Positions 14,471 to 63,008 of a DNA stretch of 64,000 bases are shown piece by piece. The notes below the pieces were generated by a model. It worked only from the letters and a program-made list of their open reading frames with translations, searched no databases and had not been told where the DNA came from. This DNA is from a virus (lineage: Duplodnaviria > Caudoviricetes), in IMG/VR virus record IMGVR_UViG_3300029288_005873, positions 256,001-320,000 of that record; one strand, 5' to 3'. How positions within the stretch are numbered: position 1 is the stretch's first letter; every line of letters starts with the position of its first letter. A program made the translations under genes and the position numbers.

Positions 14471-15694
14471 TTAAGGGCTGGCGATGTCTCGGATAACGTT
14501 AGATGGTAAGTATCCCCCCTCTTTCGTCATAAAAATGAGTCTCGCATTGCGCGATATAGAAATTTGCGAAAGACCTCCGCCGAGTTCGGTACCATCATTG
14601 GTTGCTACAAAAATAATACCGTCCGCTTCGTCGGACGAAATGGCTACAACATTAGAAATGGTTCCTCCGAGCACGGGAAAATCTGTACTACTTCCATCTA
14701 TACCATATGTATATGATCTACCATATCCATCGTATCCATCACAATATCCATCTGTTCCACTGTCGTATGCTTCGATTTTCGTCAAACCATTTGAGCATCC
14801 CACATAAAGACGAGATCCTCCTGGTAATAGTGTCGATTGTCCATCAGCTACATATAAGGTTGTAAGCTGCCCATCTAATAATCTAACTGCCTCTGGAGTT
14901 CCGGTAGAACTGTCGTACACAAAATCTGGACTTCTAATTCCGGGTCTCCAATCTGATCCATAATATACCTCAATACCGCCTAGACCTCCATTAAGAGACA
15001 TGTTTATCAGATACAATGTTCCATCAGAAGTCATATGTCCATTACGTGTGTTATACCCATCGGAGTACGTTCGCGGATCAGCAGTTTCATTCTTCGTAAT
15101 AACGGTTCCACTTTCTGTGCTAGCAACTAAGAAAAGATATCCGTCTAACACTTGACTTGATAAAGAGTTTACAATATCATTCGGCCAGCTTGGTGTTACA
15201 GCTCTAGAAAGTATGATTGGCATTAAATATCCATCTGATAGCCCAACACTATATGGTTTCCATTCACCTACAAGTTGCCGCACATGTATGCGTCGAATAC
15301 CAGGTTCTGGATTGTAATATCCATCAATATCTACATAACCATCAGAAAAGTAAAAATCATTCACAGGATCATCGCCCACACGATATGACCAACACCCAGC
15401 AAGTCTGGAATAATATCTTACCTGAACATTAATAAATTCAGGGCGTGACGCCACATTGCGATCAAGAACTATACGAAAACCACCAGCAATAGCGGATACA
15501 GAGGAAAGAGGACCAAGAAATGGAGGATAGAATATTGACCCATTTCCCCAAAAAGCCAATTGCCCCTCGACAAAAATTTCCAAGGCAGAAAGCAAAGGCG
15601 CTGGTGTCTGAATTATATCAACCTGTATGCCGGTAAGCACACCAACATTCATAGCTCCGTTGGCTGGGCTTAGGTTCTGAAGAACAATTGACAC
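14471..15694 (-). CDS. putative virion structural protein, beta-rich, 8 DGY motifs
   Basis: Ig-like N-terminus (QNLSPANGAMNV), propeller-like C-terminus; GTG start after AGGAG. Confidence 0.55.
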   Translation of the reverse strand: MSIVLQNLSPANGAMNVGVLTGIQVDIIQTPAPLLSALEIFVEGQLAFWGNGSIFYPPFLGPLSSVSAIAGGFRIVLDRNVASRPEFINVQVRYYSRLAGCWSYRVGDDPVNDFYFSDGYVDIDGYYNPEPGIRRIHVRQLVGEWKPYSVGLSDGYLMPIILSRAVTPSWPNDIVNSLSSQVLDGYLFLVASTESGTVITKNETADPRTYSDGYNTRNGHMTSDGTLYLINMSLNGGLGGIEVYYGSDWRPGIRSPDFVYDSSTGTPEAVRLLDGQLTTLYVADGQSTLLPGGSRLYVGCSNGLTKIEAYDSGTDGYCDGYDGYGRSYTYGIDGSSTDFPVLGGTISNVVAISSDEADGIIFVATNDGTELGGGLSQISISRNARLIFMTKEGGYLPSNVIRDIASP

Positions 15695-15704
15695 GTTTTT
15701 TCTC

Positions 15705-16859
15705 CTATAAAATGGTAAAGGAATATGCGGCATCCATCACATTACTAGAAAAGTCGCTAGCCCTAACCTCAATAAGCGCATTATCTCCAGAATGGAAAAA
15801 CCCTGCCACAGGGTAAAGTACAACCGAAAGACCTTGAGGAAAAATTTCTATTTGTCCACCCCACCCATTTGCCCAGCCAGCGGCTCCACCAAACACTAAA
15901 ACCGAATTCACTGAAACAATGAGGGAAGAAATTTCGACCGATGTTATGTCTGAAATAAGAAATCTAATCGTATCTGGAGCTAGCACTACTGCCCCACTGG
16001 CTGGCACCATATCTGAAATCCTAGGAGAGTCGGAATCAGAAAAGCTATATCCATCTCCATTAAGACATGCTGCATATATCCCATATGAATCTAATATTTG
16101 TCCCCATTTTGTCGGACTTGTACTTTGTATATCAAAAATGTCTAGACCTCTTATACCCATCAGGAATGCACGTTGTATATCCTTTTCCACCATAAGACTT
16201 TGCTGCCAAGAACGGACTAGACCATTATATCCAGATACTAAAGCTTCGGAAAACCCAGGATAGACTGAAGCACCTGAAAATTCCACAGGAAAACCATGAA
16301 TGTCCAAAATATCTGACATAGTTAATGTAAAAGTTGGATTTCCATTCATACCCTCAACCCACAATAATATGGAATCATTAGAAATTATATCTATTTTCCT
16401 TACATATGCTCCATTTGATATGGAAAACAAAGAGGCATCATCTAAAGTTCCAGTGTCTAAAGCTCCACTAAAACCAACCGAAAGGCAAACCTCGAAAGGA
16501 CCTATGGAAACAAAAGTAACTGTGGTTGCGATCCAAAAACCATATGTTTCATCCAAAAATGTCACACTATCTATACTTGAGGCTAGAATATGTAATTCGA
16601 CCCTAGTTGATGCTGAATATGAACTATGGTCAATCCTTACATGGAAGCCACTGTAGCCGTCAACTACAGTATTTCCAACATACCCATCAAATGGAGAAAT
16701 CCATCCAGAGGCTCCATCATAAGCCTGTATTCCATTTACAAAAATGGACAAGGAGGTTGATTCTACGCCATAAGAATCTAAGACATCAAAAGAAAAGCTT
16801 TCAGATGGTGTTACTCCACCCATTTCAGCTTCGGGATCACGGGAACTTAAAAAAAGCAT
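15705..16859 (-). CDS. putative virion structural protein, paralog of the C-terminal half of 16871..19132
   Basis: Shared blocks DASLF.(I/F)SNGAYV, SW.Q/ES, RGLDI, W.QILDSYGI. Confidence 0.6.
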   Translation of the reverse strand: MLFLSSRDPEAEMGGVTPSESFSFDVLDSYGVESTSLSIFVNGIQAYDGASGWISPFDGYVGNTVVDGYSGFHVRIDHSSYSASTRVELHILASSIDSVTFLDETYGFWIATTVTFVSIGPFEVCLSVGFSGALDTGTLDDASLFSISNGAYVRKIDIISNDSILLWVEGMNGNPTFTLTMSDILDIHGFPVEFSGASVYPGFSEALVSGYNGLVRSWQQSLMVEKDIQRAFLMGIRGLDIFDIQSTSPTKWGQILDSYGIYAACLNGDGYSFSDSDSPRISDMVPASGAVVLAPDTIRFLISDITSVEISSLIVSVNSVLVFGGAAGWANGWGGQIEIFPQGLSVVLYPVAGFFHSGDNALIEVRASDFSSNVMDAAYSFTIL

Positions 16860-16870
16860 TTTTGCTCCAG

Positions 16871-19132
16871 CTACGACCCAAAGGGGTCGATACCAAATGA
16901 AATTTCCCCAAAGCCGAAAACATCTGGCTCGGGACCAATAGAAAAGCTATAACTCGAGTAGAGCGTATTTCCTAACATATCGGCAACCTGAATAATAACC
17001 GTTGCTGTTCCATTATCTAGAGCTTGACGTGGAAACAATTCTATATCCAAGGCATTTTTGTATACAACAATTGATCCACCACAAACACCTGGATATGTCC
17101 AACCTAAAGTTCCACTAAATACGATTTCGTAAAGAGTGGGTATACTAGAATTACGTAGTCTTACTACCAAAGAACGAATCTGGATGGCATTTGACGCACT
17201 TTCGACCCAGAATCTAATGTTTGTTGTTGGAAGAACATTTATTTCCCCAGGTGCTGGTGACCGATGTGATAGGAAAGGCAAATCTGTCCCTGAAAATACA
17301 TATGCCGATCCCGAAAGGCAAAATGAGGATATACCATAAGAATCAAGGATTTGAGACCATTTTGAAACCGTCGTTCCCACCCTGGCACCAATAATATCTA
17401 AACCGCGCGTTCCACTAAGATATATGCGTTCAGTATCACGTCTTATTTGACTGCTTTCATGCCATGAACAAACAAGACCTGTTGTGTTAGAGAACATAGC
17501 TGAAGACTGAAAAGGCACAATCGTCGCCGAATTGCCTTCAGGTGCTAAACTATCTCCATAAGAATCTAATGGTGATGCTGTAAGTACAAAAGGCTCAGTA
17601 CCCTGAAAACCCTCCATCCAAAGTCGTATTTTGGTTGGATCGTTGGAAATCTGTTCGGTGTATTTTACATAAGCGCCATTGGAAAATGCGAACAAAGAAG
17701 CATCAGACATGCTAGAGAATGACATTGGACCGCTGAATAAGGCATCTAATGTAATCTCATATGGTCCCTGCTGGAGCGAAAGCAATTTTGTCTGCGTTCT
17801 AAACCACCAAGTCTCATCAAGCCATTGCCCATATATATCTTGAGCTACTACTCTAAGATATACAGCTGAAGATGGAGAGAAAGGAACTGAACTAGAAAAG
17901 GAGACATGGTATCCAGAATATCCATCAACTGTAGTTGGTTCTACTGACCCAGAATATGGCAAAACGAAACCAAAAAGACCATCATAAACTTTTTGCCCAT
18001 TAACATACAAAGAAATCGATGATGGTTCTACACCATCATCGAGAATATCCATTGACATATTTGCAAATACAGATACGCCGGTCTGAGTAGGAAAGGGTAT
18101 TTGATTATCAAGAAAAAGCGGAACACCCCTTGTGTAAAAATAGTATGTCTGATTTAGAAGATTTCCAACAAAATCTGATGCGGACACAGATATGCCAACA
18201 GGTGACATTTGTGGCAAGGGGTTGGGAGGTTGTATATCATATTTAAGCCCACCAGAAATTCCAGTGGTTGTTAACAAATATCCATCCTGTGCGACACCAG
18301 ATGAAACCGCTGGTACGGTTCCAAACAATATGTCCGTTCTTGTCCAATCAACCCCGCTTAGATCATCAACTATAGATAAAGAAATAAGAGCTGAACGGTC
18401 AACACCTAATTGATCTTCAGCAGGATTTAAGTCTACCAGATATGGACTAGCGTCATCACCATAAAGCTCCGTGATAAGTTCAGAAAAATGAACTTCGTCA
18501 GAAGCAGTATACCAATCGACACAGCCTACATACTTGACATCCCAACCACTAGTTGAAATTGGAGAATGGTCATATAATTCAACCCAATCTGTATCACTGG
18601 CTTTTTTCCAAAAGGCCTTAAAATGACCCGGCTGACCAACCTGAAAAGGAATCTCTTCCTCAATCATAAGGCTTATTGGGAGATCGGAATCATCCCAAAC
18701 ATCATATCCCGCATAAGCAACAATACCATCTACATGGACATATAAAGTTCTAGCGGTATGAAATAAAAATCTATTTATTGTTACCGACATTCCACGAGAA
18801 TAATCGGGAAGAGGGCTCGTTGCCCCAAAAAGAACTAGACCACATCTTGGTGCGTATAGTCCGCTGTTTCCAGTAAGACTTGTTATTGTTGTATACCATC
18901 GCCGACGTAATGGATAAAACGAAACAACAGGTTCATATGCAGCAACCCCATTTCCCCACCACCAAATTCCTCCAATGTTATATTGTATGGTAAGGTCATG
19001 AGGCAATTCTGAGAAAACGGCCCTACTCCCCGGATTACTCAAAAGCAATGGGTCGTAGGTTCCATCAAAATAATTGGGTCGGATTTTGAACCAATCCATA
19101 GAAGGGCTCCGCACTTGTGTGGCAACCTCCAT
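16871..19132 (-). CDS. putative virion structural protein with repeated Ig-like modules
   Basis: Ser/Gly/aromatic-rich; repeated P...Q.GV modules; C-terminal FGFGEISFGIDPFGS. Confidence 0.6.
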   Translation of the reverse strand: MEVATQVRSPSMDWFKIRPNYFDGTYDPLLLSNPGSRAVFSELPHDLTIQYNIGGIWWWGNGVAAYEPVVSFYPLRRRWYTTITSLTGNSGLYAPRCGLVLFGATSPLPDYSRGMSVTINRFLFHTARTLYVHVDGIVAYAGYDVWDDSDLPISLMIEEEIPFQVGQPGHFKAFWKKASDTDWVELYDHSPISTSGWDVKYVGCVDWYTASDEVHFSELITELYGDDASPYLVDLNPAEDQLGVDRSALISLSIVDDLSGVDWTRTDILFGTVPAVSSGVAQDGYLLTTTGISGGLKYDIQPPNPLPQMSPVGISVSASDFVGNLLNQTYYFYTRGVPLFLDNQIPFPTQTGVSVFANMSMDILDDGVEPSSISLYVNGQKVYDGLFGFVLPYSGSVEPTTVDGYSGYHVSFSSSVPFSPSSAVYLRVVAQDIYGQWLDETWWFRTQTKLLSLQQGPYEITLDALFSGPMSFSSMSDASLFAFSNGAYVKYTEQISNDPTKIRLWMEGFQGTEPFVLTASPLDSYGDSLAPEGNSATIVPFQSSAMFSNTTGLVCSWHESSQIRRDTERIYLSGTRGLDIIGARVGTTVSKWSQILDSYGISSFCLSGSAYVFSGTDLPFLSHRSPAPGEINVLPTTNIRFWVESASNAIQIRSLVVRLRNSSIPTLYEIVFSGTLGWTYPGVCGGSIVVYKNALDIELFPRQALDNGTATVIIQVADMLGNTLYSSYSFSIGPEPDVFGFGEISFGIDPFGS

Positions 19133-21537: not shown

Positions 21538-21574
21538 TGGGTAATTCCTCCTTGGAAAAAGCTTCCTACAACGC

Positions 21575-21592: not shown

Positions 21593-21604
21593 GGTTTTCT
21601 GTTT

Positions 21605-43533: not shown

Positions 43534-43565
43534 GACATTTCTCCAAAGCGCAAATAGCGCTACAT

Positions 43566-47314: not shown

Positions 47315-47315
47315 T

Positions 47316-48251: not shown

Positions 48252-48259
48252 AGTGCTCC

Positions 48260-49147: not shown

Positions 49148-49156
49148 GTTTCTCTC

Positions 49157-49822
49157 CTAGAGACACTTTCTCGCGACAACACAACTAACAGCTCGACTAT
49201 CCCAATCGAATCTTTGCTCAATAAAACATCCAAGATCAGAAAGTGTTTTTGTAAATTCCGCATAATCCATAACCATGCGCGGCTGCGTCCTTCCAGCATA
49301 TGTGGGACAGATAATCATCTCAGTAGGTTTGTCATTTGCATCATGAAAAAATACCTTATGGATAACTATCCAATCAGAAGAAAGCTCAACCATACGGGAA
49401 AGGAAACTTTTCCAATCAACAAAATGTTCTATAGATCCACACGCCATTACAACATCCCAAAGTTTTTCTGGATGAAAATCCATAATATCGGCAACATGAA
49501 AATCCCCAGAAGGATAATTTCGTTTTGCTCGTTCGCACATATGCGATGATATATCCATTCCTTCGTATATAAATCTTACATCTAATCCCAAACTAGACAT
49601 ATAAACAGCCTGCCAGCCTGCTCCGCAACCTATGTCTAGGCATGATAACATGCTGGTTTTCATATCTTTCTGATCAATTAATTTCAAAGCCTTGGCTAAA
49701 GTGTCGAAATATGGGTATTGTCCCACATTTCCGCGCTCGAAATAAGTGCGATTCATATCGTCATGTTCGGCAGCCACTTCGGGCAAAGCCCACCAAAAAT
49801 AATCAGTTATTTCGTTTGCCAC
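49157..49822 (-). CDS. class I SAM-dependent methyltransferase
   Basis: CLDIGCGAG, GMDIS, ADI, SIEH. Confidence 0.85.
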   Translation of the reverse strand: MANEITDYFWWALPEVAAEHDDMNRTYFERGNVGQYPYFDTLAKALKLIDQKDMKTSMLSCLDIGCGAGWQAVYMSSLGLDVRFIYEGMDISSHMCERAKRNYPSGDFHVADIMDFHPEKLWDVVMACGSIEHFVDWKSFLSRMVELSSDWIVIHKVFFHDANDKPTEMIICPTYAGRTQPRMVMDYAEFTKTLSDLGCFIEQRFDWDSRAVSCVVARKCL

Positions 49823-50657
49823 AATGGCCTCCTGAAGATTTTTTGATCAGTTCAAAATATGGATCGTAGACGAGACGTCTATCACTCGCAGTGTGTTTCC
49901 ATCCAGTGGGATAATATGAATCTGGTCCAGTTATAGAGAATTCATGATAATGGTAACACACAAGATTATATTTGCCATCAATAATTAGCTTACCATCTAT
50001 AGTCTTCGATATCGTGTGCCGTCCTATTCCCCATGGTCCCAGATTTATTCCAGGATGAGGACAAGAGAGGGCTCCCTTAAATCTTTCTGGCTGATCATGT
50101 AATATGTTTAACCACCCCTGATCTGCACAACGTCCATCAGGAAGAGTGACCCAGTAACACCATTCTATACAACGGTCTTTCCACCATTCCAAGAATTCTC
50201 TACAGTTACCATCATTTCTATATCCAAGAATACCAACATTAAATCTAACGCCAGATCTGGGGGGTTCAAACCCATGGTCTGTAACCATAAGGGAATGATT
50301 CCCCATAATATTTTCAATCTCTTCAGGACTTGACCAAAAAGCCATATCAGCATCAGTGTAAAATACTGTATCGATCCCAAATTTATCAAAAAGGAACATC
50401 GGAAGCACAGGGGTTATCGTGGCATAATATTCCTTTGGTTGTCTATTACCTTTTGCCTTCAACAGATCCGGACAATATTCTTCTACATCAGAAAGACAGA
50501 TAGGAATAACACCATCAAGTTTTTTGGCCTGCTCTAAAACATTAACATCCAATGCAAGTACAAAAAGTTTTGAATTTGGACTTTCATGTAATAAAGTACT
50601 CCAACAGGTCCAACCCTTTGCCGCATATGCGCTATCAAAATATGTACAGAAGTTCAT
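49803..50657 (-). CDS. putative glycosyltransferase (GT-A, DxD), paralog 1
   Basis: FCTYFD, YTDADM, FNVG, WW..RC.EWC, ADQGWL, NLGPW, YHYH. Confidence 0.75.
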   Translation of the reverse strand: MNFCTYFDSAYAAKGWTCWSTLLHESPNSKLFVLALDVNVLEQAKKLDGVIPICLSDVEEYCPDLLKAKGNRQPKEYYATITPVLPMFLFDKFGIDTVFYTDADMAFWSSPEEIENIMGNHSLMVTDHGFEPPRSGVRFNVGILGYRNDGNCREFLEWWKDRCIEWCYWVTLPDGRCADQGWLNILHDQPERFKGALSCPHPGINLGPWGIGRHTISKTIDGKLIIDGKYNLVCYHYHEFSITGPDSYYPTGWKHTASDRRLVYDPYFELIKKSSGGHCGKRNN

Positions 50658-51496
50658 GCTAGTGTTCCTTTCTTTGCCAGTAACATCATATTGTGATAAG
50701 GCTCATATATATTACTCATGTTCCATGGGGAAACTTCCCATCCTGTATCATTCACACACTTTCCAACAATGTCCTTATATCCGTGAAAATGATAACATAT
50801 TAGGTTGTGTCGACAATCTAGGACTATTTTGCCATTGGAAAACGAGGTAGGATGCATGGATAAATTCCAAGGTCCAAGATTTATTCCAGGATGCGTGCTA
50901 ACCTTTACACCAGAAAATCTATTTGGATTGTTATGTATTATAGATAAATATCCTTGATCTGCACAACGTCCATCAGGAAGAGCGCGCCATTCACACCATT
51001 CGAGACAACGTTCCTCCCACCATTTCAAAAAACTAATACCATCTGGACTTTTTCTATATCCGAGAATTCCAACATTGAAGAAACCAGCCCCTCCAGCCAT
51101 AGCAATCGGGTTTTCGTGCGGAGTAACCAATAGAGAGTTGCTACCCATTTCGCTAGATATTTCATCTACAGAAGAAAAAAAAGCCATATCAGCATCAGTG
51201 TAGAATACTGTATCAAGACCAAATTTGTCAAAAAGAAATTGTGGAAGTATAGGCGTTATTGTTGCATAATATTCCTTAGGCTGTCTTGATCCTTTTATGT
51301 TTAATAAAGATGGTCTATATTCTTCTATATCTTTCAACATTATTGGAATTACACCGCGCCATTTAGATACAAGACCGGCAACCACATCATCCATACAAAG
51401 AACAAAAAGACGGACCGATGAATTCGAAGTCAAAGTATGATGGCACACTTTGGCTTTTGTGGCATATGCTGAATCGAAATATGTACAGAAATCCAT
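50654..51496 (-). CDS. putative glycosyltransferase (GT-A, DxD), paralog 2
   Basis: Same motifs as 49803..50657. Confidence 0.75.
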   Translation of the reverse strand: MDFCTYFDSAYATKAKVCHHTLTSNSSVRLFVLCMDDVVAGLVSKWRGVIPIMLKDIEEYRPSLLNIKGSRQPKEYYATITPILPQFLFDKFGLDTVFYTDADMAFFSSVDEISSEMGSNSLLVTPHENPIAMAGGAGFFNVGILGYRKSPDGISFLKWWEERCLEWCEWRALPDGRCADQGYLSIIHNNPNRFSGVKVSTHPGINLGPWNLSMHPTSFSNGKIVLDCRHNLICYHFHGYKDIVGKCVNDTGWEVSPWNMSNIYEPYHNMMLLAKKGTLA

Positions 51497-51499: not shown

Positions 51500-54400
51500 C
51501 TATCCTTGAAGAAGTTTTTTTACAAAAGGAGTATTAGACCTTTCCATCGGACGAACTAGAGAATTTCCAGCCCTCCCAACACGTATTACAAGATCGGAAG
51601 TAGACCTTTGTCCAGTAAGTGGAACGCGCCTAAGAAATGAATTCTGACCATGCACATCAAGATGCTCTGACCCTTCACCTGCCACAAAAATATGAGAATT
51701 GGTAAAATGGCATCTAATACGCAAAGCAGCTTCAATGATCCTATTGGGTTCACAGCCCTTAACAGGAATTAATAGAACCGTAGGATACGGAAAACGAGAA
51801 GATTCTCCAGGTTTCCAGGCTGCAAGGATATATTTCATATCATGCATAAGTTTTGAATGAGCTATACCGTTGCTTCTTCTAAGTTCATCATTCGTACAAT
51901 TATGCATAAGATTACAATGAGTACATGCTATTATCCTTCCACCAGTTCTTAGAATACGCATATCAAGATCAGTATCCTGTGAATAATATGGATAATCCAT
52001 GTTAATCCCATCAAATTTTTTCAAGGTCTCTGTATACATACAACCAACTGTTGGAAAATATATACCACTATCCATCCTTACAGTATATACATCTCCCCAT
52101 GAATTTTTTACACAAAATCCACCCATATCTATTGGTGATGATTCATCCATAACAAGACACATATCTGAAAGTGCCGCCCCCTGGGGAACTATATCATCAC
52201 TTAGCCAACAGATGTATTTTCCTTTTGCTATGGCAAGAGCCTCATTGAAGGCTTGAGTAAAGCTTGTTCTTTTGCCAGAAAATATTGGAATTATTCGCTT
52301 GTCCTCACCAGATCGTTTGCGCAACCATTCCTGCGTTCCATCATTGGAACCAGCATCATTGACAATTATTTCTACCGAGTGCAAATTAGAAGATACCAAT
52401 GACGAATCAACCGCTTGTTGTAGCTGGTTTAGACGATTGTGAGTTCCTATAAATATCGTAAGATCTACAGGTTTTCCATTAGCATTATTGAGGAAATTTG
52501 CCCTTCTACTATTCATGCTTCGCATTAGATCAAATACAGCATTTCGAAAAGCTGCTGGATTTTCTAAAGGCAAAACTCCAGGATCCCAAGACCATGTGCC
52601 GATAAGAGACATTGAAAAATATGGCTGTAGAAATGAATCATATCTAACGGTCAAATGATCCACACAAAAACGTAAATCAATCATTCTCTGATCTACATAT
52701 TCCCCTCCAGGATGCCATGCTATAGCGAGCATATTAGGAAGCTTTCTACGCAGATCAAGCATAAGATCTCGCCAAGGAAGACCATCAGCCTGTTCATCAA
52801 GGAAAAGTAATAGAATATCTGGGTTAAAACGCAAAATCTTAGCAACAAGATCTCTACATTCTGTGAATGGTATAGTTAAGAAGTCCATATCATGTAGGGT
52901 CGTTTTTGACATAAGATCCATAGGAGGATCCCTCATGATACACAATGTCCGCTTGAATGTGTAGGAAATTCTGTTTTTTGGAAAGTTTGGCATAATTGCC
53001 TCAAAACATCCAATACGGAGTGCTAGTTCTTTAATACGTAGAACGCGCGAGTGAGAAAGGGCTGTTTTAGCACCATTGTCTCCGATTTTTTTTGCCTTTG
53101 TAGGATCTGCGGAAAGCTGTGCAACCAAAGACGCACTTTCTTCTGGAGAATCAAACAAGAGAAGATCATGCCCATCTTCGCACCATTCAATAATTTCCAT
53201 AGATCGCTTTGCGATCACAGGCACACCACTTGCCATAAGCCCAAAGAGTTTTCGCATAGGACCTTCTACAAAAACGATCGACTTGGCATCAAATAGAGCT
53301 GAGCGACATTCCGTATCACCATGTGCCGCTAGGCGTATATAAGCAGTATTTGGCAAGTGTGTTCGAATTGTTTCTAAATAAGTTTCTGAAGAACTTTCGG
53401 CAAAGATTACAGCATCGCATTTCTGTTCTCTATCTGGGGGGTTAAATCCGACAGCCCCAGCGTCCCAAAGCTCGACATTGAAGCATCCAGCAGAACGATA
53501 AATAGCAAGCTCAATTTCACTTTCCACCAAAGCTAAATCAACAGCTCGAAGGACAGCTAAAGCATTTTTGTCAAAAACAGGCCAACCCGGAGAAAGCCAG
53601 GCTGTAATAAAAACATTGGGAATAGAAAACCTAATATCATTTATTGTTGTTGTTGTAATTGCGGTCGGACGACCAAGATGAAAATGTACAATATTAGCAC
53701 CGCGTTCAACTGCAATTTTACTGAGATTTATAAGATTTCCGTAAACAGGTATTCCTTCGCACCGTATTCCATTCGCTATAAATGCGTCTTTTGTGACAAT
53801 TTCGTCATCAAGTTCAGATACCACTAGTACTTTTGTATCATGTCCAGAAAATCGTGAATATTGAAGATTGTTTGGAATAGGAGAAAGTTCAGCCTTATGT
53901 ATTTGAATTGGTGCTGCTGTCGTCGTCATATGTGGTCTGTTTCGCTTCACCAAACGCATTTGCGGTTTTTCTGGAGCAGAATCTGTGGCTGCCGAAACAG
54001 GTTCAGAAGACGATGATGCAATCATTTTAGGTTCTTGGACAGGGGTGTCTTGCGGAAGAACCTCAAAAGCAATTCGTTTTACTAACAGGGATCCCGTACC
54101 ACCAGGAGATCTCCAAAGTCTGAGCATAATTGGTATATTTGGTGGAAAATCACTGGTTTTTAATTGAAGTTCAAACGTACTCCATGCGGCGCTTTCACAA
54201 AGCATAGGTTGATGGGGAAAATCAAAACTTCGATTTGCATAAAAGTTACAGAAGAGTTTCCCATTCCCACTTTCCCTTTTAAGATCAAGTTGAAGGCGGT
54301 AAACTGAATTGGGTTCCACTTTTGCTGGCACAAACAAGACAGATTTTTCGCCTTCCATTGATTGGCATTTTACGCCACGTTCGTCCCTTTTTGCTACAAG

Positions 54401-54889
54401 ACTTCTGCCGCGCCAAAACTGTTGGTCAAAGCTGTTCATTTCCCACCAGTCCTCCATCTGCTCAAGGCAGTATTTTTTATCAAACGCACTAATATGACGC
54501 GGCTCTGGCATGGGTCCAACACCGCGTGGAAGCTTTACCGCATCAACTTGTTCAATAATTACAATACCAGAACCAGGAGTTCTTGATATTTTGATGAACG
54601 CCAGATTAATAGGTGTGGCAACATTTCCTGTTGTAACGTCTATCTCAAACACATGCCCATTTGGTGGGCAGTTAAAAGAAACCTGTGCAAATTGCTGTTC
54701 ATTTTCCGCACAAATCTCAAAACAAAGAATGCGCCCATCAGTATTTGGGTTTGAGGCCATAACCCTACAACGGTACACAGAATTTTTCTCAAATTCTACG
54801 GGAACGTATAGGCTGGAATCACAATCAAGACCAAAACAGCCATCGTCCATGTGTAGAAAATTTCCCCCCCACAAGCAAGGATCTGACAT
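51500..54889 (-). CDS. modular glycosyltransferase: two CBM-like repeats + GT-B-like region + GT2
   Basis: Duplicated VP...E.NSVYR modules; MASGVPVI; IGTHNR, VNDAGSNDGT, WLSDD, QDTDL. Confidence 0.75.
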   Translation of the reverse strand: MSDPCLWGGNFLHMDDGCFGLDCDSSLYVPVEFEKNSVYRCRVMASNPNTDGRILCFEICAENEQQFAQVSFNCPPNGHVFEIDVTTGNVATPINLAFIKISRTPGSGIVIIEQVDAVKLPRGVGPMPEPRHISAFDKKYCLEQMEDWWEMNSFDQQFWRGRSLVAKRDERGVKCQSMEGEKSVLFVPAKVEPNSVYRLQLDLKRESGNGKLFCNFYANRSFDFPHQPMLCESAAWSTFELQLKTSDFPPNIPIMLRLWRSPGGTGSLLVKRIAFEVLPQDTPVQEPKMIASSSSEPVSAATDSAPEKPQMRLVKRNRPHMTTTAAPIQIHKAELSPIPNNLQYSRFSGHDTKVLVVSELDDEIVTKDAFIANGIRCEGIPVYGNLINLSKIAVERGANIVHFHLGRPTAITTTTINDIRFSIPNVFITAWLSPGWPVFDKNALAVLRAVDLALVESEIELAIYRSAGCFNVELWDAGAVGFNPPDREQKCDAVIFAESSSETYLETIRTHLPNTAYIRLAAHGDTECRSALFDAKSIVFVEGPMRKLFGLMASGVPVIAKRSMEIIEWCEDGHDLLLFDSPEESASLVAQLSADPTKAKKIGDNGAKTALSHSRVLRIKELALRIGCFEAIMPNFPKNRISYTFKRTLCIMRDPPMDLMSKTTLHDMDFLTIPFTECRDLVAKILRFNPDILLLFLDEQADGLPWRDLMLDLRRKLPNMLAIAWHPGGEYVDQRMIDLRFCVDHLTVRYDSFLQPYFSMSLIGTWSWDPGVLPLENPAAFRNAVFDLMRSMNSRRANFLNNANGKPVDLTIFIGTHNRLNQLQQAVDSSLVSSNLHSVEIIVNDAGSNDGTQEWLRKRSGEDKRIIPIFSGKRTSFTQAFNEALAIAKGKYICWLSDDIVPQGAALSDMCLVMDESSPIDMGGFCVKNSWGDVYTVRMDSGIYFPTVGCMYTETLKKFDGINMDYPYYSQDTDLDMRILRTGGRIIACTHCNLMHNCTNDELRRSNGIAHSKLMHDMKYILAAWKPGESSRFPYPTVLLIPVKGCEPNRIIEAALRIRCHFTNSHIFVAGEGSEHLDVHGQNSFLRRVPLTGQRSTSDLVIRVGRAGNSLVRPMERSNTPFVKKLLQG

Positions 54890-54901: not shown

Positions 54902-57166
54902 CTATGTAAACATACTGTCATATAGGTCTGATATTCCCGCATTATCCTTTCCCATTAATTCTTTCGCAAAATCAAATGCGTGTTTGGACATAACTGTATT
55001 TTGTTCAGGATTACACAGTTTCTTTATAGCGTCTACATATCTATCAGTACCTCCTCGCACTATAAAGCCATTAACCCCGTCCAAAACAACCTCAGGAATT
55101 GCTCCAACATTGGAAGCGACAACAGGAACTCCGGAGGCAAAGGCTTCCAAAATCGTCAAAGGCAAACCTTCCATTGCCGAAGGCAAAAGAAAAGCATCAA
55201 AGGCTGCGTAGAATCGTTCCGTATCAGTGCGACGACCGACAAATATTACATTCCCCAAACTACTAGCCATTTTCTTCAGAACGTTTTCTTGAGGACCGCT
55301 TCCAACTATAACAAATACAGCCTCAGGCAAGGCTCTAGCGCATGATAACACTATTGGAATATTCTTCTCAGGCGAAAGACGTGCTATTGTGCCAACAACA
55401 AAACGATTTGTTGGACAACCAATTTCAGTAAGAACCTGTTTGTTTTTTGGAAGACCGAATTTTTCCCATGCAATCTGCTGTGGCAAATATCGTACGTTTT
55501 TATTACCCTTTTTGGCAAGCTTTGTACAGATTGTCTCAGATACGCCAACAATCATAGAAACATTGCGTCTGGTTGCAACCTTCGCCATAGAATCTTGCCA
55601 AATTAGATCACTGTGAACCGTCTCTACAATCTTGCCACCCCATCCTTCACTCAATATCCTAAGCAACAGGGCATAAACCTGTAGACTGTTGTAAAAATGA
55701 ACTATGTCATATTTTTCAACTTCTATCAGACATTTAAGGGCATTTCCCTCACCTCGATGACTTAGGTTCTCCAAATTAACCCCAAGGTCACCAAAAAGGG
55801 AAACCAATTCGTTCGACATTCCAAGAGGAAAAGCAACCGTTGGTTCATACTTCTCTCTATCAAGGCGCAAAATAGCTTCGCGTACCCAAACCTCTCCTCC
55901 ACCAGCCATATTATATGGAATAACATATAGTATTTTGCGCTTACGTGTCTTTGGAATAAGGTTGTGTTTTTGTGCTAAACACTCTTCCGCAAGATCCGTT
56001 ATCTGTTTTGCAGCAGCAGTCCATGAAAATTTATTAACGGTTTCGTTTGCAGCATCTAATACTCTGGCTTTTTCTTCAGCCACATTGTTATAGACGCGAC
56101 GCATAAGCTCAGAACAATGTTTTGTACTAGGATCACCAACAACAGCGTCTTTTGAATGTGTCCAATATTGCATACTTGGTGGAGCCTTCATCTCACCAGT
56201 ATTAACAAGTATTGAATTTTTATCATTTAGAAAATCTAACTGTCCACCATGTCGTGGTGCTATAACCACATTCCCACATGCCAAAGCCTCAAGCAATGGT
56301 AGTGCAAAACCTTCACAAGAACTCATGCTAACTACCGCATCACAAGCAGTATATAATGATCCTATATCGTCAACAAAAGATGTGACTATCTCTATTTCTG
56401 GAGGATTAGCCCTACCCTTCATTTTATTTTCCAAAATAGCACGCACATCAACCTCAAAAGGTTTGTCTGGAGCAGGCTTTAGAAATTTGGTTTTCATAAC
56501 CAAACACACATCATCATCACCAGTGAAAGCATCAAGATACGCTTCAAGAACACGATCATGGCATTTCCTGGCATGTGGTATTGCGTTATGGAGAAACTTA
56601 ACCCTTTTCTTTGTGTGTAGTGGAAATGGAGCAATTCCTGGGTGGAATATTCTACGATCTACTCCATGAGGGACAACAACAAGTTTGGAACTAGGAATGC
56701 CGTTGTTTAAGAAGATGTCTGATGAATATTGGCTAGATGGAAGTATATAATCTACCCCCCGGTGAAATTCTTGCCAACCACACGGAAGTACTGAACTCTC
56801 AAAATTCCAAATAACCATTTTACTTCTAGATTCACCAAAAAATCTACGCGGAATCTGGTAAAGTATAGTATATGCTAATTCTAAGTCATAAGGTCTATTT
56901 ATATCATTTATATCATCAGGACATTTCTTGCGATCTATAGATACTTCTGATCCATCATCATCCAGAAACACAAGTTCCGGCTGAGAAGGATGCCCGTGAT
57001 ATCCTGGAAGCAGAAGATGTCTAAGGTCATCAGGAAAATGCTCTAACCCATTTGTGGATTTTATATGAACACTATGTCCAGCATTGTTCATTTCTCTAGC
57101 CAAGGCTTGTGTAACAAGGCTCCACGAATGAAGTGTAGCCGCCATGCCATGCCATCTAATCTTCAT
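54902..57166 (-). CDS. double GT4 (GT-B) glycosyltransferase
   Basis: VVPHGVD...EGFALPLLEALACG; GGGE...ARLSPEKN...EGLPLTILEAFASG. Confidence 0.88.
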   Translation of the reverse strand: MKIRWHGMAATLHSWSLVTQALAREMNNAGHSVHIKSTNGLEHFPDDLRHLLLPGYHGHPSQPELVFLDDDGSEVSIDRKKCPDDINDINRPYDLELAYTILYQIPRRFFGESRSKMVIWNFESSVLPCGWQEFHRGVDYILPSSQYSSDIFLNNGIPSSKLVVVPHGVDRRIFHPGIAPFPLHTKKRVKFLHNAIPHARKCHDRVLEAYLDAFTGDDDVCLVMKTKFLKPAPDKPFEVDVRAILENKMKGRANPPEIEIVTSFVDDIGSLYTACDAVVSMSSCEGFALPLLEALACGNVVIAPRHGGQLDFLNDKNSILVNTGEMKAPPSMQYWTHSKDAVVGDPSTKHCSELMRRVYNNVAEEKARVLDAANETVNKFSWTAAAKQITDLAEECLAQKHNLIPKTRKRKILYVIPYNMAGGGEVWVREAILRLDREKYEPTVAFPLGMSNELVSLFGDLGVNLENLSHRGEGNALKCLIEVEKYDIVHFYNSLQVYALLLRILSEGWGGKIVETVHSDLIWQDSMAKVATRRNVSMIVGVSETICTKLAKKGNKNVRYLPQQIAWEKFGLPKNKQVLTEIGCPTNRFVVGTIARLSPEKNIPIVLSCARALPEAVFVIVGSGPQENVLKKMASSLGNVIFVGRRTDTERFYAAFDAFLLPSAMEGLPLTILEAFASGVPVVASNVGAIPEVVLDGVNGFIVRGGTDRYVDAIKKLCNPEQNTVMSKHAFDFAKELMGKDNAGISDLYDSMFT

Positions 57167-57514: not shown

Positions 57515-58684
57515 CTATGATGTCGCTAAGGGAATAGAACGAAACCGCCTTAAATAGCTGCCGCCACTTTGGTACATAATCTTTGGCTGATATCCATTAA
57601 CTTCAGCAGTGGCAGGCGTAGTATTGAGTGTAGCATATGTTCCAACGCTTCCTGAAAATCCATTTCCACCAGAATTTCCAGCAACTTCCCCACTTCCACC
57701 AGCTCCACCTCCGCCTGCTGACCCAAAAGCAACAGAATATGTCCCTTCGGAAAGGTGTCCTTTTGCATGGAAAATTTTTATACGTCCACCACAACCCCCT
57801 CCTCCACCGGCGCCGCCATCGCCCCCATCGCCATTTTCAGCATCTCCACCAACTCCACCATCTCCGCCAACACCACCAGCTCCACCTGTACCTCCTTTTG
57901 CGCCCAAGTATCCAGTACCATATATAACTGCTGGCGCATATAATAGAATTCCACCTCCAGAGCCTCCTCCCCCACCACAGCCTCCACCTCCCCCACCTCC
58001 TCCAGCTCCTGTACTTGATCCACCCGTTCCTCCAAAACCACCTATAGAGGCACTAGTTGCATCACAAGATATGGAACCGCCATTTTCTATCCTAATTGAG
58101 CGTTTTGCTACTAGCCAAAATGAACTTCCACCAGCTCCACCAGCTCCACCAGAATCACCATTTGTACCACTATTTGAACTACCGCCTCCTCCACCACCTC
58201 CACCTCCTCCTCCACCTCCACTTCCAGCCTCTATTGTATTAGTATATCCATCACCATACAAAGATGGGACCCCAACTGCTGGAAAAAAACCATCGCCACC
58301 AGCTTGTGACCCAGAATACCCAGAACCACCAATTCCACCAGTGCTTCCACAGCTTGATCCATTTTGCGAATGAGCGGCACCTTTTCCAGATCCACCACCA
58401 CCAGTTCCAACACCTGAAGTTCCTGTACTACCAGGATCTCCAGGTGTTGGAGTATCTGTGCCACCACTTCCACCACTTCCACCACTTCCACCATTTATTG
58501 TTCCATCTCCAACTACTTCACCAAGTATGTTGGCATCAACACATTCAATTTTATATCCTAACCCGCTGATGTTAAGTGTTGCACCAGCTGATACGGTAAA
58601 AATTCCAACGTTTATGTGGTCGTCCGAAAGTATTACACTTCCAGACACAGTCCAATCATCCCCCCGATGGTCAACAGTCATCAT
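57515..58684 (-). CDS. glycine-rich putative tail/fibre protein
   Basis: Long GGX runs; GGGGSGGGILL and GGGCGGRIKI motifs. Confidence 0.7.
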   Translation of the reverse strand: MMTVDHRGDDWTVSGSVILSDDHINVGIFTVSAGATLNISGLGYKIECVDANILGEVVGDGTINGGSGGSGGSGGTDTPTPGDPGSTGTSGVGTGGGGSGKGAAHSQNGSSCGSTGGIGGSGYSGSQAGGDGFFPAVGVPSLYGDGYTNTIEAGSGGGGGGGGGGGGGSSNSGTNGDSGGAGGAGGSSFWLVAKRSIRIENGGSISCDATSASIGGFGGTGGSSTGAGGGGGGGGCGGGGGSGGGILLYAPAVIYGTGYLGAKGGTGGAGGVGGDGGVGGDAENGDGGDGGAGGGGGCGGRIKIFHAKGHLSEGTYSVAFGSAGGGGAGGSGEVAGNSGGNGFSGSVGTYATLNTTPATAEVNGYQPKIMYQSGGSYLRRFRSIPLATS

Positions 58685-58712: not shown

Positions 58713-60167
58713 TTATGTATACATTGCATAAATATCAGTATATTGCATTCTAGCCTCTCCTGTTCCAGAAGCAAGTCTTAATTGTATATTTGCAGTTATA
58801 AAACTATCATTAGGTTCATAACCATCATTTATTGCAACCGAATCAGCCTCTAACGCTTCAGAATTTGCTGATGATGTTAATAAAATACTATCCGTACCGC
58901 CAGATCCAACAAAATTGATTTTACATTCGGCAGAACCTCCAGCATCAGAAGCCCATAAAGAAACCAAAGCTCTCCATCTACTAGGAGAAAGGTCTGAATC
59001 CCTCACGATACGAAAAGTCTTTTTTGTAACAAATACTGCTCCAGACTCGGAAAAATAGGAATCGTCAGAAAATACCAAAAATCTGTCGACCGTTCCAGCT
59101 GTGCCAGAAATTGTTTTCGGTCTCCAACGATTAGTTGAACTATCCCAAACCAGGCTATCACCATTAGTAGGTGCTGAAGCGGAGACATTAAAACCTTGTA
59201 ATTGGTCAGCATTTTGAGGTTGGTTAAGATAACCATCAAGATTCTCTACGCTGATTTCATCAAAACCTTCATCTTGATGTGAAGAAGCATGGGAGTGTCT
59301 CGAAGGACGCCAACGACTAGTTCCATCATCCCAAGCCAACAAGTCCTCACTGGATGGTATTGATCCAGAAACAAGAAAACCTTGTAATTGGTCAGCATTT
59401 TGAGGCTGGTTAAGATAACCATCAAGCCCTTGGACGCTTATTTCATCATCACCGGTGTCCTCATGCGTAGAGGCATGTGCTGCTGGTGTCTGTGGAGTAC
59501 TCAAAAGACCAGAAAGACCAGTAACACTTATTTCATCACTACCGCCATTCTCATGCGAAGCAGCATGAGCCTCTGGCGTCTGCGGATCGGCAAGAACACC
59601 AGAAAGACCCGTGACGCTTATTTCGTCACCACCACCGTTCTCATGAGAAGTAGCATGAGATGATGGTGTCTGCGGATCGGCAAGAACACCAGAAAGACCA
59701 GTAACACTAATTTCGTCAGATCCTCCATTTTGATGGGTTAGGTGATGATGTCCGGGTGTCGTTCCTCCAGCTTCTATTCCATCTTCGAGTTGACTAATCA
59801 ATGTTTCAACGGCCACATTCCATCCACCAAGCTCTGTAGTTTCACCCGGAGCCGGAATACGCAATCCAAGAAATGTTGTTTTAACAGCTGCTATTGCTGT
59901 TGCTATCAGTCTACCATTTGCTAAAAGTTGTATAAGGTATGATCCGGCTTTATCTGGAATAAATCCACATGTTGAAGATATATGGGAATCCAATGCTGCA
60001 GATGATCCAATTGGTTTGGACAGCATTCTCCAATTCCACGAAACCAAACTTGTATCAGATTGGCTTGATAAAACTACCAAAATCGAAAGCGCTAAATCGT
60101 CACGACTTTGCCCAGGAACTCCAGCAGGTTTGCCAGCCTGGTTAATTGTGATATTAACAGCAGCCAT
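58713..60167 (-). CDS. putative tail fibre protein with HxxxH repeats
   Basis: PKD-like N-terminus (W.W.MLSKPIGS...PDKAGSY); repeated H..SH..GG.DEISV. Confidence 0.65.
   Translation of the reverse strand: MAAVNITINQAGKPAGVPGQSRDDLALSILVVLSSQSDTSLVSWNWRMLSKPIGSSAALDSHISSTCGFIPDKAGSYLIQLLANGRLIATAIAAVKTTFLGLRIPAPGETTELGGWNVAVETLISQLEDGIEAGGTTPGHHHLTHQNGGSDEISVTGLSGVLADPQTPSSHATSHENGGGDEISVTGLSGVLADPQTPEAHAASHENGGSDEISVTGLSGLLSTPQTPAAHASTHEDTGDDEISVQGLDGYLNQPQNADQLQGFLVSGSIPSSEDLLAWDDGTSRWRPSRHSHASSHQDEGFDEISVENLDGYLNQPQNADQLQGFNVSASAPTNGDSLVWDSSTNRWRPKTISGTAGTVDRFLVFSDDSYFSESGAVFVTKKTFRIVRDSDLSPSRWRALVSLWASDAGGSAECKINFVGSGGTDSILLTSSANSEALEADSVAINDGYEPNDSFITANIQLRLASGTGEARMQYTDIYAMYT
59115..59750 (-). 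repeat. tandem intragenic repeats: ~90-bp/30-aa units followed by two longer variants
   Basis: HATSHENGGGDEISVTGLSGVLADPQTP-like x3, then DEISV..LDGYLNQPQNADQLQGF...RWRP x2. Confidence 0.85.
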
Positions 60168-60179
60168 TCTAGCCTCCAA

Positions 60180-63008
60180 TCATATACCGAGCAGTGTACG
60201 CATCTGCCCATCTGTTATCTCCTGGGTGGGATTTGCGAAACCTGCCTTTTTTAAATATGTGGTAATAAGAATACGCATACTCTGTGATGGTATTAAGTTA
60301 CCATATCCATCATCCAATATATCTTTTACCTTAATCATGAGTAAAGAAGTTGATGGATCATAGTACATTCCAACAACATCATCTATATTTCCACCCATGG
60401 GTACTGGCCATGAATTTGTAACAGATTGAAGAGATGCTGATATGCGTACTTTCCCAGAGGAAAAATCTCCCACCTGAACGAAACTCCTATCACTATATTT
60501 CATTGCTGGAAAACCCATCGCTGTTTTACCATTAGAGGATTCAGCTACAAAGGAATCAAACAACAGAAAACCAACATATCCATCAAGAATGGTTGGACTT
60601 CCGTATGAATCTGTAACAGGTATTCTCAAGGATAGATGCGAAACCTCAAAATCAAGAGGATGTGGTGTATTATCAGGTTTCAACACATATCCGTCGAGAA
60701 GTAAGTTTCCTGGTACAAAATAGTCATTCCTACCACCATAACACAAGTCACCATCAGGCTTCTCAGTAAAAGTTGTCGGAGCAAGCCTACTCATGTCGCA
60801 TATGTCGATTCTGTCGGGCAACCAGGTTCGAAAATAATCTATCTGCCAGATTATATCTGAGAAAGGTAGCGTCTGGAAAGCTGTATTGTCTGATGGTATA
60901 TCTGCTGTTGTAGAGAGTGGGTCAAGCTTATTTTCCACTTGTACAACCATTCTTTGGAAAGAAGATCCAGCCGGAAAAGTGGCAATAGTTTTGTCCAGAA
61001 AATCCTGAATCAAAGCGAGGTCGGTCGCATCTACTTTTCCATCACCATTCACGTCCGCACGAAGTATCTTATCCAAAGATATTAAACCTTGGATAAGTTT
61101 ATCTTGTGTTCCGCCAGGAGTTCCATCTGAAAGGTCATATCCATCCGGCATCCAGGATGCTACAATAGCTAAATCATCATCTGTTACTTCTCCATCTCCA
61201 TTAACATCCCCATATGCATCAGTATATAAATCTGTTGATACAATTCTATATTCATAACTTGACGATGAATCTGGAAGCAGGATAGATCCTACAGCATTAT
61301 TAGATAATAGGTCAGCATCAGGAGAAATAACATATAATCTATCACCATATACGGCTCCAGCAAGAGTTGTATTTCCAGATATGGATGTTGGATTACCTCT
61401 TGGATTTGTATCCTTTGCTCTAGCTAAAGCCAGTGGCACAATATCACTAGCCAAAAGGGTCTGAAAATCAGTATCATCTGTTGTGGATATTGATGGTGAT
61501 GGAGCAACCCTAGAGGATATATTATTACCAGTACGCGGATCCTGTCTCGGAGAACTATATGTTGATTGGACTTCAACAATCACAAAGTTCTTTGTATTTC
61601 TGGCTGTAGTCACCATTGGAACCGAGGCAACAAAATATGGTTGTTCAACACCACTAGAGTCAGCCATGAGGCGCGGAATTTCAACCCCGATTCCGTCCTG
61701 ATATGCTGTACCATCTGATACCTTCAAATAGTCTCCATGTACTTCGAACCACATATCGCTTTCATAAACATTAACCCATTGTGTTCCATCATAAACAACC
61801 ATGTAACCATTACTTGCAGTATGGACAGCTTCTTCCAGTAGGATTGTTCCCACATTTGCATTTCCTGCGCGCCCAATTGTAAGAACATAATATCTTCCAA
61901 TTTCCACTGGCGAAATCAATGGGTCTGCCACAGATGTTTCTGTAAGAACAAAATCAATTTTACGCGCATAGCCATCAAGAACGATGCCTTGGTTTGCAAA
62001 ATCGTTGGCATCCAATGACAGTTGCGCAAGTACTGTTGGATCCGGGTCAAAATCTTCCAAGTTATCAGGGGTGGGTTTTACTGGACAGTCTACGGTTGTC
62101 TGAAGAGCATATAAACCAAGAATAATCTGACCAGACCAATTGTACTCATTACCTGGAAGAGCCGAGTCGTCCCTTTTCACTGACAGGAGCACAGATATTT
62201 TCTGAATGTTTGTCCCACTAGCAAGGAATTTTTGTCCTATCCTAGTGGTTACGTCATCTGGAGCAAGCTCACGCTGATCTACTGAAGCAAGCTCTATATC
62301 GAGATCCGACACCGATCTTGATGGACCGATTATATCTTGTAGCAATTCTGTCAACGTTGTGGTGGAATCACCCACTTTGAAATTTACGAAAAACTGGTTA
62401 GGCTGAGCTGTCTGCCAGGCCATTAGGCTGTCAGAAGACACCTCCATTGGTTTTGTTTCGCGTATGACGCATTGCCCAACAAGCTGATATCCATTCATAG
62501 CTGGGTCTAGACTTCCAAACAAATTTCCCGCAAAATCGTTGAATAAAATCCCAAGAATTTCACGATAACGATTGTGTGTAACCTGTGTGCCATTCTCTTC
62601 AAATACAAGATCGTCATGTACAAGAGAACCACCAAAAGTCTCGCCAATTATCGAAACTTTTGTTGACATTGAACCAGAAAGCGCCGTTCCAGATATCGTA
62701 ACAGCTAACATGACACCATCTACAACATCTGAAACCTGCTGTAGACCGGATCCTATGTACACATTCTGTCCATCAAAACTGTATGCATCTAGAAGTGCTT
62801 GTTGCTGAGAGTTTAAGCTTGACGAATCAAATATTATGGGTGGAGATGCAGCATCACCAACCACACCACTGCCGAAGAAATTTGCTACAGTGGCTGCATC
62901 TATGCCGACATTTCTGCTCTGTTCATCACGCATATCGTTGCGCGTAAGTTGCATTCCGTCGTAGTAATTAACCCTTGTCAGGTTTACCGGCAAACGTGTC
63001 GTGCTCAT
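60180..63008 (-). CDS. large putative virion/baseplate protein with dockerin-like Ca-binding repeats
   Basis: N-terminal RVNYYDGMQL...EQ; GDVNGDGEVTDDDL and ADVNGDGKVDATDL. Confidence 0.6.
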   Translation of the reverse strand: MSTTRLPVNLTRVNYYDGMQLTRNDMRDEQSRNVGIDAATVANFFGSGVVGDAASPPIIFDSSSLNSQQQALLDAYSFDGQNVYIGSGLQQVSDVVDGVMLAVTISGTALSGSMSTKVSIIGETFGGSLVHDDLVFEENGTQVTHNRYREILGILFNDFAGNLFGSLDPAMNGYQLVGQCVIRETKPMEVSSDSLMAWQTAQPNQFFVNFKVGDSTTTLTELLQDIIGPSRSVSDLDIELASVDQRELAPDDVTTRIGQKFLASGTNIQKISVLLSVKRDDSALPGNEYNWSGQIILGLYALQTTVDCPVKPTPDNLEDFDPDPTVLAQLSLDANDFANQGIVLDGYARKIDFVLTETSVADPLISPVEIGRYYVLTIGRAGNANVGTILLEEAVHTASNGYMVVYDGTQWVNVYESDMWFEVHGDYLKVSDGTAYQDGIGVEIPRLMADSSGVEQPYFVASVPMVTTARNTKNFVIVEVQSTYSSPRQDPRTGNNISSRVAPSPSISTTDDTDFQTLLASDIVPLALARAKDTNPRGNPTSISGNTTLAGAVYGDRLYVISPDADLLSNNAVGSILLPDSSSSYEYRIVSTDLYTDAYGDVNGDGEVTDDDLAIVASWMPDGYDLSDGTPGGTQDKLIQGLISLDKILRADVNGDGKVDATDLALIQDFLDKTIATFPAGSSFQRMVVQVENKLDPLSTTADIPSDNTAFQTLPFSDIIWQIDYFRTWLPDRIDICDMSRLAPTTFTEKPDGDLCYGGRNDYFVPGNLLLDGYVLKPDNTPHPLDFEVSHLSLRIPVTDSYGSPTILDGYVGFLLFDSFVAESSNGKTAMGFPAMKYSDRSFVQVGDFSSGKVRISASLQSVTNSWPVPMGGNIDDVVGMYYDPSTSLLMIKVKDILDDGYGNLIPSQSMRILITTYLKKAGFANPTQEITDGQMRTLLGI

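What the first reader, a model, noticed from the sequence alone, without database searches (positions are those of the whole stretch)
14471..63008. DGY tripeptide confined to virion-type proteins: candidate sequon for a phage-encoded (tyrosine?) protein glycosylation system
Seen: by hand count DGY occurs 8x in 14471..15694 (including DGYCDGYDGY), 3x in 15705..16859, 2x in 16871..19132, 1x in 57515..58684, 3x in 58713..60167 and 5x in 60180..63008. That is 22 in ~3,400 aa, plus several DSY/DAY variants. Rough composition would predict about 1. I found none in the enzymes, replication or glycan genes. The motif sits in unrelated folds and two separate structural clusters, so shared domain ancestry does not explain it. 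Known: tyrosine O-glycosylation exists on some bacterial S-layer proteins, and virion glycosylation is known in some phages and giant viruses. Inference: D-G/S-Y is an acceptor signal read by the ~19.5-kb glycan locus in this window, building a glycan coat on the virion.
Basis: partly seen in the sequence, partly recalled or inferred. Interest (0 to 1): 0.92.

Follow-up and report, generated by a model that had tools for sequence, protein, structure and literature searches.

The report
DGY sugar-tag on jumbo-phage tails
The outward-facing tail and baseplate proteins of this uncultured 442-kb phage and its relatives carry the tripeptide Asp-Gly-Tyr about 14 times more often than chance; the motif is missing in the few relatives that lack one neighbouring sugar-transferase gene, so it is probably an undescribed signal for attaching sugars to tyrosine, though no modification has been observed.

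Summary
The counts are exact: 22 DGY in 3,376 aa, against 1.1 expected. The window lies in a 442-kb myophage; DGY is its most enriched tripeptide, as in seven related genomes of 30-56% GC.

The motif marks outer proteins (sheath outer domains, baseplate, neck, fibres): 230 seen, 17 expected. Capsid, portal, tube, tape measure and hub lack it (1 vs 8); replication and glycan enzymes are depleted (7 vs 18). DGF, EGY and DSY are not enriched.

Of the glycan-locus enzymes, only a GT4 domain (window 55985-57166) is a clear orthologue at a fixed position family-wide. 138 loci with it hold 1,459 DGY (106 expected). Loci reduced to GT4 alone keep the motif. Three loci without GT4 at that site lack it, but only one is a clean case, and I picked them for low DGY.

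Best reading (about 0.62): a soluble phage GT4 primes DGY tyrosines and variable enzymes extend the glycan. No modification is shown. This scan found the motif earlier in at least eight other genomes; I found no paper on it.

The parts
14471..15733 (-). 420-aa protein (probably starts at 15694), Ig-like plus beta-propeller; 8 DGY at 15343, 15325, 15235, 15145, 15061, 14752, 14740, 14731
   Evidence: Atlas look-alikes are Big_5 Ig-like and propeller proteins, lead-level scores; virion role inferred
15705..16859 (-). 384-aa beta-rich protein; 3 DGY at 16688, 16661, 16055, plus 2 DSY
   Evidence: no Pfam or PHROG hit
16871..19132 (-). 753-aa protein sharing a domain with the 384-aa protein; 2 DGY at 18286, 17926
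37711..51496 (-). Variable glycan genes: NDP-sugar epimerases/dehydratases, nucleotidyltransferase, DegT aminotransferase, methyltransferases, GT2s, GT47-like; no DGY
   Evidence: Pfam; content differs between relatives; only one hydrophobic stretch, at the uncertain start of 46655-47500
51500..54889 (-). 1129-aa multidomain glycosyltransferase (GT4-like plus GT2); candidate chain-extending enzyme, full length only in the closest relative
54902..55984 (-). Second GT4 domain fused to the core GT4 in this subclade
55985..57166 (-). Core GT4 domain (residues 1-394), candidate DGY-reading priming transferase; E285-x7-E293 invariant
   Evidence: orthologue downstream of the baseplate genes across the family; invariant residues; confident GT-B model; co-absence with DGY
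57515..58684 (-). 389-aa Gly-rich fibre-like protein; 1 DGY at 58252
   Evidence: not found in the compared relatives
58713..60179 (-). 488-aa His-repeat fibre-like protein; 3 DGY at 59423, 59237, 58826 (two in a duplicated repeat)
60180..63008 (-). 942-aa core baseplate-associated protein with a dockerin-like motif; 5 DGY at 61976, 61145, 60695, 60584, 60311
   Evidence: in 48 orthologues 277 DGY fall in 27 site clusters
63039..64000 (-). C-terminal end (LamG) of the 2,307-aa baseplate wedge-like protein; its 5 DGY lie beyond the window

Best explanation
D-G-Y is a short linear acceptor signal. In the host cytoplasm the phage's soluble, retaining GT4 (window 55985-57166) recognises it and attaches a first sugar from a nucleotide-sugar donor, most likely to the tyrosine hydroxyl. 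The variable GT2/GT4/GT47, methyltransferase and sugar-synthesis genes behind it then extend and decorate the chain one step at a time. The result is a lineage-specific glycan layer on the sheath, neck, baseplate and fibres. Shown: the motif, its specificity, its distribution, its gain and loss, the conserved intact GT4 and their co-occurrence. Inferred: that the GT4 reads the motif, that Tyr is the linkage, the order of steps, and any function of the glycan (shielding or surface adhesion).
For: Motif specificity: in proteins with three or more DGY (a set chosen on the motif), DGY 555 vs 28, DGF 31 vs 30, EGY 6 vs 15; synonymous codons vary; flanks show only weak preferences, Leu at -1 up and Pro at +1 down. 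In the unselected outer-protein set: DGY 230 vs 17, DGF 18 vs 19, EGY 0 vs 10; inner and core proteins 1 vs 8.3. Cytoplasmic enzymes 7 vs 18. Sheath: 223 sites before residue 520, 1 in the conserved core. Sites turn over: 27 site clusters in one family, tandem runs, 57 and 33 copies in two unrelated proteins. The GT4 is the one glycan enzyme kept as an orthologue at a fixed position, with invariant EX7E and GT-B fold. 138 GT4 loci: 1,459 vs 106, and none of 107 long ones has fewer than 4. GT4-only loci keep DGY: L527 4 in 1,508 aa, L515 5 in 4,276 aa. L523 has the same gene order minus GT4 and 1 DGY in 4,397 aa, at a site shared with LamG domains. P0256 has no glycan locus and 0 DGY. These losses sit in separate clades. 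Phage G has no GT4 orthologue and no tag in its core tail genes.
Against: No modification is observed and no member is cultured. GT4-less cases are few and were picked for having zero DGY. L523 is the only clean case, and even there the rest of its 181-kb contig could not be searched. For P0256 only one protein could be counted. L521 is rearranged, has a different GT nearby and a neighbouring 1,102-aa protein with 3 DGY. Two orthologues with zero DGY still have the GT4. L387 has 24 DGY and no GT4 in the 7.1 kb visible downstream. Motif density varies about tenfold among GT4 loci. I know of no GT4 that glycosylates tyrosine (own knowledge). Solvent exposure could not be computed from the model.
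Confidence: 0.62

Rival explanations
1. DGY is read by the glycan machinery, but not as proposed: another transferase of the locus or a host enzyme primes it, or the linkage is on the Asp or a nearby Ser/Thr, or the group added is not a simple sugar.
For: The comparative data link the motif to a gene, not to a chemical bond. A GT2 often follows the GT4. The GT4-only loci could have other transferases elsewhere in their genomes.
Against: DGF is not enriched, so the Tyr hydroxyl matters, and there is no Ser/Thr preference in the flanks. L527 and L515 have no GT2 between baseplate and epimerase yet keep DGY.
Confidence: 0.13
2. DGY is an unmodified docking or metal-binding epitope, for example for a decoration protein, a host surface or Fe/Ca ions; the GT4 acts on something else, such as phage DNA, and the co-loss is incidental.
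For: A few other genes were found only in the DGY-rich genomes of my small set, such as the 91-aa protein at 369876 and a NifS-like protein. Phage glycosyltransferases often modify DNA (PMC12619734). Exposed Asp and Tyr can bind metals (own knowledge).
Against: Single-gene contrast between L527/L515 and L523. Depletion in cytoplasmic enzymes fits a diffusible writer better than a passive epitope. The GT4 directly follows the baseplate genes rather than DNA-metabolism genes.
Confidence: 0.17
3. DGY is a favoured structural turn in beta-rich fibre and Ig-like domains, spread by repeat duplication, with no reader.
For: Some sites look structural or duplicated: the LamG-type site survives in GT-less phages, D[AS]YG at sheath 174/198 is shared widely, and phage G has a DGY cluster half explained by one repeated domain.
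Against: DGF and NGY are not enriched. Sites appear in different sequence contexts and move between orthologues. The same proteins lack them in GT-less relatives. Structural regions of Faust, Tunturi 5 and Mel-JY01 show 2 vs 1.9, 4 vs 1.8 and 1 vs 0.5.
Confidence: 0.08

Closest known systems
Virion glycosylation of mycobacteriophages (Freeman et al. 2023; read only through PMC12619734, and PMC13445384)
   Same: Phage-encoded glycosyltransferases would add O-linked glycans to virion proteins inside the host cell.
   Different: There the glycans are at the C-termini of capsid and tail tube subunits. Here capsid and tube have no motif; the proposed sites are many internal tyrosines in a three-residue signal on sheath, baseplate and fibres, with a 19.5-kb locus that makes its own sugars.
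Tyrosine O-glycosylation of S-layer proteins, e.g. Thermoanaerobacter kivui Val-Tyr sites (PMC3245024)
   Same: Tyrosine as acceptor on a surface structure.
   Different: The known context is Val-Tyr, not Asp-Gly-Tyr. S-layer glycans are generally transferred en bloc by a membrane enzyme from a lipid carrier (own knowledge); this locus shows no such membrane enzyme.
Bacterial sequons with an upstream acidic residue: Bacteroidota D-(S/T)-(A/I/L/V/M/T) and Campylobacter (D/E)-X-N-X-(S/T) (PMC3245024)
   Same: Short linear signal with an Asp before the acceptor, at -2 in the Campylobacter case; Pro next to the site is disfavoured.
   Different: Acceptor is Ser/Thr or Asn, and the writers are cellular envelope enzymes. 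Here Glu is not tolerated and the candidate writer is a soluble viral GT4.
Cytoplasmic GT4 protein glycosyltransferases: streptococcal GtfA/B (PDB 4pqg among fold matches) and staphylococcal SdgA/B (own knowledge)
   Same: Retaining GT-B enzymes that prime short repeats directly from nucleotide sugars, with further enzymes extending the chain.
   Different: They modify serine. The fold match is generic (11-17% identity) and does not single them out from other GT4s.

Membership tests
Phage-encoded virion glycosylation | Phage encodes its own soluble glycosyltransferases next to virion genes | tested here: met
Phage-encoded virion glycosylation | Glycan physically present on virion proteins | not testable with these tools
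   needs glyco-staining or mass spectrometry; no cultured member
Mycobacteriophage type (capsid and tube C-termini) | Acceptors are capsid and tail tube subunits | tested here: inconclusive
   capsid and tube carry no DGY, so the motif is not that system; separate C-terminal glycosylation cannot be excluded from sequence
GT4 retaining glycosyltransferase | GT-B fold and EX7E motif | tested here: met
   Pfam GT4 hits; E285 and E293 invariant in 100 sequences; model pLDDT 93.6 matches GT4 structures
Glycosylation sequon | Short ordered motif, specific for the acceptor residue and independent of fold | tested here: met
Glycosylation sequon | Motif present only where its transferase is present | tested here: inconclusive
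   supportive but few negatives: L523 clean, P0256 and L518 partial, L521 ambiguous, L387 unresolved
Glycosylation sequon | Enzyme modifies the motif and not its mutants | not testable with these tools
   needs an in vitro assay
S-layer tyrosine O-glycosylation | Val-Tyr context and membrane oligosaccharyltransferase | tested here: not met
   residue before Tyr is Gly; no multi-pass membrane enzyme in the locus
Bacteroidota O-glycosylation | D-(S/T)-(A/I/L/V/M/T) sequon | tested here: not met
   the enriched motif is DGY, and DSY is at chance level

The most novel reading that the evidence does not exclude
A widespread family of jumbo phages runs a self-contained, sequon-based tyrosine O-glycosylation pathway. 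One conserved soluble GT4 writes on D-G-Y, the phage adds or removes three-residue sites to tune glycan density on its tail, and a hypervariable locus sets the glycan chain, much like an O-antigen locus.
Probability: 0.55. Interest if true: 0.9.

Novelty: new variant of a known kind. Interest (0 to 1): 0.76.

Why it matters
If true, this gives a defined tyrosine sequon read by a soluble viral enzyme. To my knowledge none is described, and it would be the first GT4 acting on tyrosine. It would explain the large glycan loci of these jumbo phages as surface-coat loci rather than DNA-modification or host-conversion genes, and it would let glycosylation sites be predicted from sequence across hundreds of genomes. 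A single-domain enzyme with a three-residue tag is directly testable in E. coli and could be a compact tool for site-specific protein glycosylation.

Tried and rejected
Complex prediction of the GT4 domain with a 36-residue DGY peptide gave no answer (score 0.01); it is not used as evidence either way.

The sister sheath clade first looked DGY-free but carries the motif on other proteins. Group D genomes first looked like negatives, but their outer proteins are still enriched, 25 vs 8, and two of them that cover the region have the GT4. No alternative motif replaces DGY there.

A DNA-level explanation was rejected because synonymous codons vary. The DGY cluster in phage G is half explained by one repeated domain. 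Streptomyces phage Faust and Microcystis phage Mel-JY01, with distant GT4s, show no enrichment, so no cultured model was found.

Whole-record searches of the GT-less contigs were not possible; scans for relatives of P0256 found nothing; the GT4 alignment could not be scanned in genome contigs. Host prediction from GroEL was weak. Literature searches for 'DGY motif', 'Asp-Gly-Tyr' and tyrosine glycosylation in phages found nothing relevant; the Freeman paper itself is not held.
Full report
Observation. The six ORFs carry 8, 3, 2, 1, 3 and 5 DGY as stated. That is 22 in 3,376 aa; shuffles give a mean of 1.1 and a maximum of 7 in 20,000. The window is 256,001-320,000 of a 441,904-base virus record. 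DGY is the most enriched tripeptide of the predicted proteome, 75 vs 17.7, while DGF (27 vs 26.7), EGY (13 vs 18.4) and DSY (22 vs 17.6) are at chance. Two pairs of window sites come from duplicated repeats, leaving about 20 independent sites.

What the phage is. It has a tail sheath, baseplate wedge and major capsid gene just beyond the window and a tubulin, helicases and PhoH within it. The closest cultured relative is phage G, at 52% capsid identity. The sheath has 574 database homologues, most of the listed ones from metagenomes. The host is unknown; GroEL is only 53-57% identical to bacterial ones, with many Myxococcota and Desulfobacterota among the top hits.

Where the motif sits. DGY ranks first in all eight genomes of three subgroups, at 30-56% GC, and is weak in four genomes of a more distant subgroup. 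In outer tail, neck and baseplate proteins it occurs 230 times against 17; in capsid, portal, terminase, protease, tube, tape measure, hub and spike once against 8.3. Replication and glycan enzymes have 7 against 18; these sequences are related, so this is a trend, not an independent count. In 120 sheath homologues, 223 sites lie before residue 520 and one in the conserved core. In the sheath model, sites 68, 146, 174 and 198 fall in coils or turns next to strands. That these domains face outward follows from known sheath architecture; I could not compute accessibility.

It behaves as a linear signal. The flanks show little preference beyond Leu at -1 and avoidance of Pro at +1; all synonymous codons are used. 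DAY is the only variant with some excess, about half as DAYG. Sites are gained and lost: 277 DGY in 48 orthologues of the 942-aa protein fall in 27 clusters. Tandem runs recur in 17 of 27 records. One relative has 57 copies in an Ig-like repeat protein and 33 in a protein with a helical repeat.

The candidate writer. The genes from 37711 to 57166 encode sugar synthesis, methyltransferases and several glycosyltransferases, with no multi-pass membrane enzyme. Their content differs between relatives, but the N-terminal GT4 domain of 54902-57166 has an orthologue downstream of the baseplate genes throughout the family. Its EX7E glutamates are invariant in 100 sequences and its model is a confident GT-B fold with only generic GT4 matches. 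In 79 loci fetched with this domain, upstream genes hold 699 DGY (53 expected) and downstream genes 15 (31 expected).

Does the motif go with the enzyme? After removing duplicates, 138 loci with the GT4 hold 1,459 DGY against 106, and none of the 107 longer ones has fewer than four. To find negatives I picked orthologues of the 942-aa protein with no DGY, a biased choice. P0256 is followed almost directly by the helicase, with no glycan locus; only that protein could be counted. L523 reads baseplate, small membrane protein, epimerase, tubulin, and has one DGY in 4,397 aa, at a LamG-type site. L527 and L515 have the same order plus the GT4, and have 4 in 1,508 aa and 5 in 4,276 aa. For the all-zero clade of P0305 I noted the prediction first; the GT4 is absent at the usual site, but the locus is rearranged, has another GT nearby and a neighbour with 3 DGY. 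L518 has one LamG-type site in 4,622 aa and no GT4 in 2 kb visible. These cases lie in separate clades. Against the link: P0268 and P0269 have no DGY but keep the GT4, with a few sites in neighbouring proteins, and L387 has 24 DGY with no GT4 in 7.1 kb visible. Phage G lacks the orthologue and has no tag in its core tail genes.

Mechanism. Most likely the soluble GT4 primes the tyrosine of D-G-Y in the cytoplasm and the variable enzymes extend the chain (0.62). A diffusible writer would also explain why cytoplasmic phage enzymes avoid the motif. Rivals are another writer or linkage (0.13), an unmodified docking or metal site (0.17) and a structural turn (0.08). The modification, the linkage and the function are all inferred.

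Comparison with what is known. Mycobacteriophages glycosylate capsid and tube C-termini with their own enzymes (PMC12619734; PMC13445384). Tyrosine glycosylation is known at Val-Tyr in the T. kivui S-layer, and Asp-led sequons in Bacteroidota and Campylobacter (PMC3245024). This system would work like these but meets none of their specific definitions. I found no paper on the motif.

Earlier findings and verdict. The scan reported DGY in at least eight other genomes, and one note already claimed co-absence with glycosyltransferase genes. I tested that here and narrowed it to the single GT4 gene, on few cases. Verdict: real, family-wide and undescribed; a new variant of virion glycosylation if confirmed; interest 0.76.

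Noticed in passing
window 36333-37802 (-): Tubulin/FtsZ-family gene at the end of the glycan locus; kept in most relatives, including L523, which lacks the glycosyltransferases.
   Followed up: partly
window 19216-21636 (-): PIN-PhoH protein interrupted by a LAGLIDADG-containing insertion, apparently an intein.
   Followed up: no
window 60180-63008 (-), residues 599-670: Dockerin-type/EF-hand-like motif inside a core baseplate-associated protein; in some relatives DGY sites are placed within it.
   Followed up: no
L523:13223-15207, L515:13843-15806, L521:15169-17139: A roughly 335-aa protein with hydrophobic ends plus an epimerase remain when all glycosyltransferases are gone, suggesting the epimerase has another role.
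   Followed up: no
G009 1490-12394 and 148296-159731 (loci L220, L227): Giant proteins of 3,634 and 3,811 aa with 57 and 33 DGY, one built of Ig-like repeats and one with a helical repeat in which most units carry the motif.
   Followed up: partly
L004:11876-12151 (G000 369876-370151): 91-aa protein near the capsid gene found in seven of eight DGY-rich genomes and none of the four outgroup records; possible decoration protein.
   Followed up: no
L520:4783-35675 (phage G gp420-gp431): Cluster of large paralogous proteins with a repeated domain containing DGYWYVRG.
   Followed up: partly
L620, L621, L622: Contigs of this phage family are binned into GTDB genomes labelled Gammaproteobacteria, Chitinophagales and Thioploca; likely mis-binned phage DNA.
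   Followed up: no
L537-L539 (G033): A relative with only 5 DGY over its whole 42-kb tail region; the contig ends before the GT4 site, so it may be another loss.
   Followed up: partly
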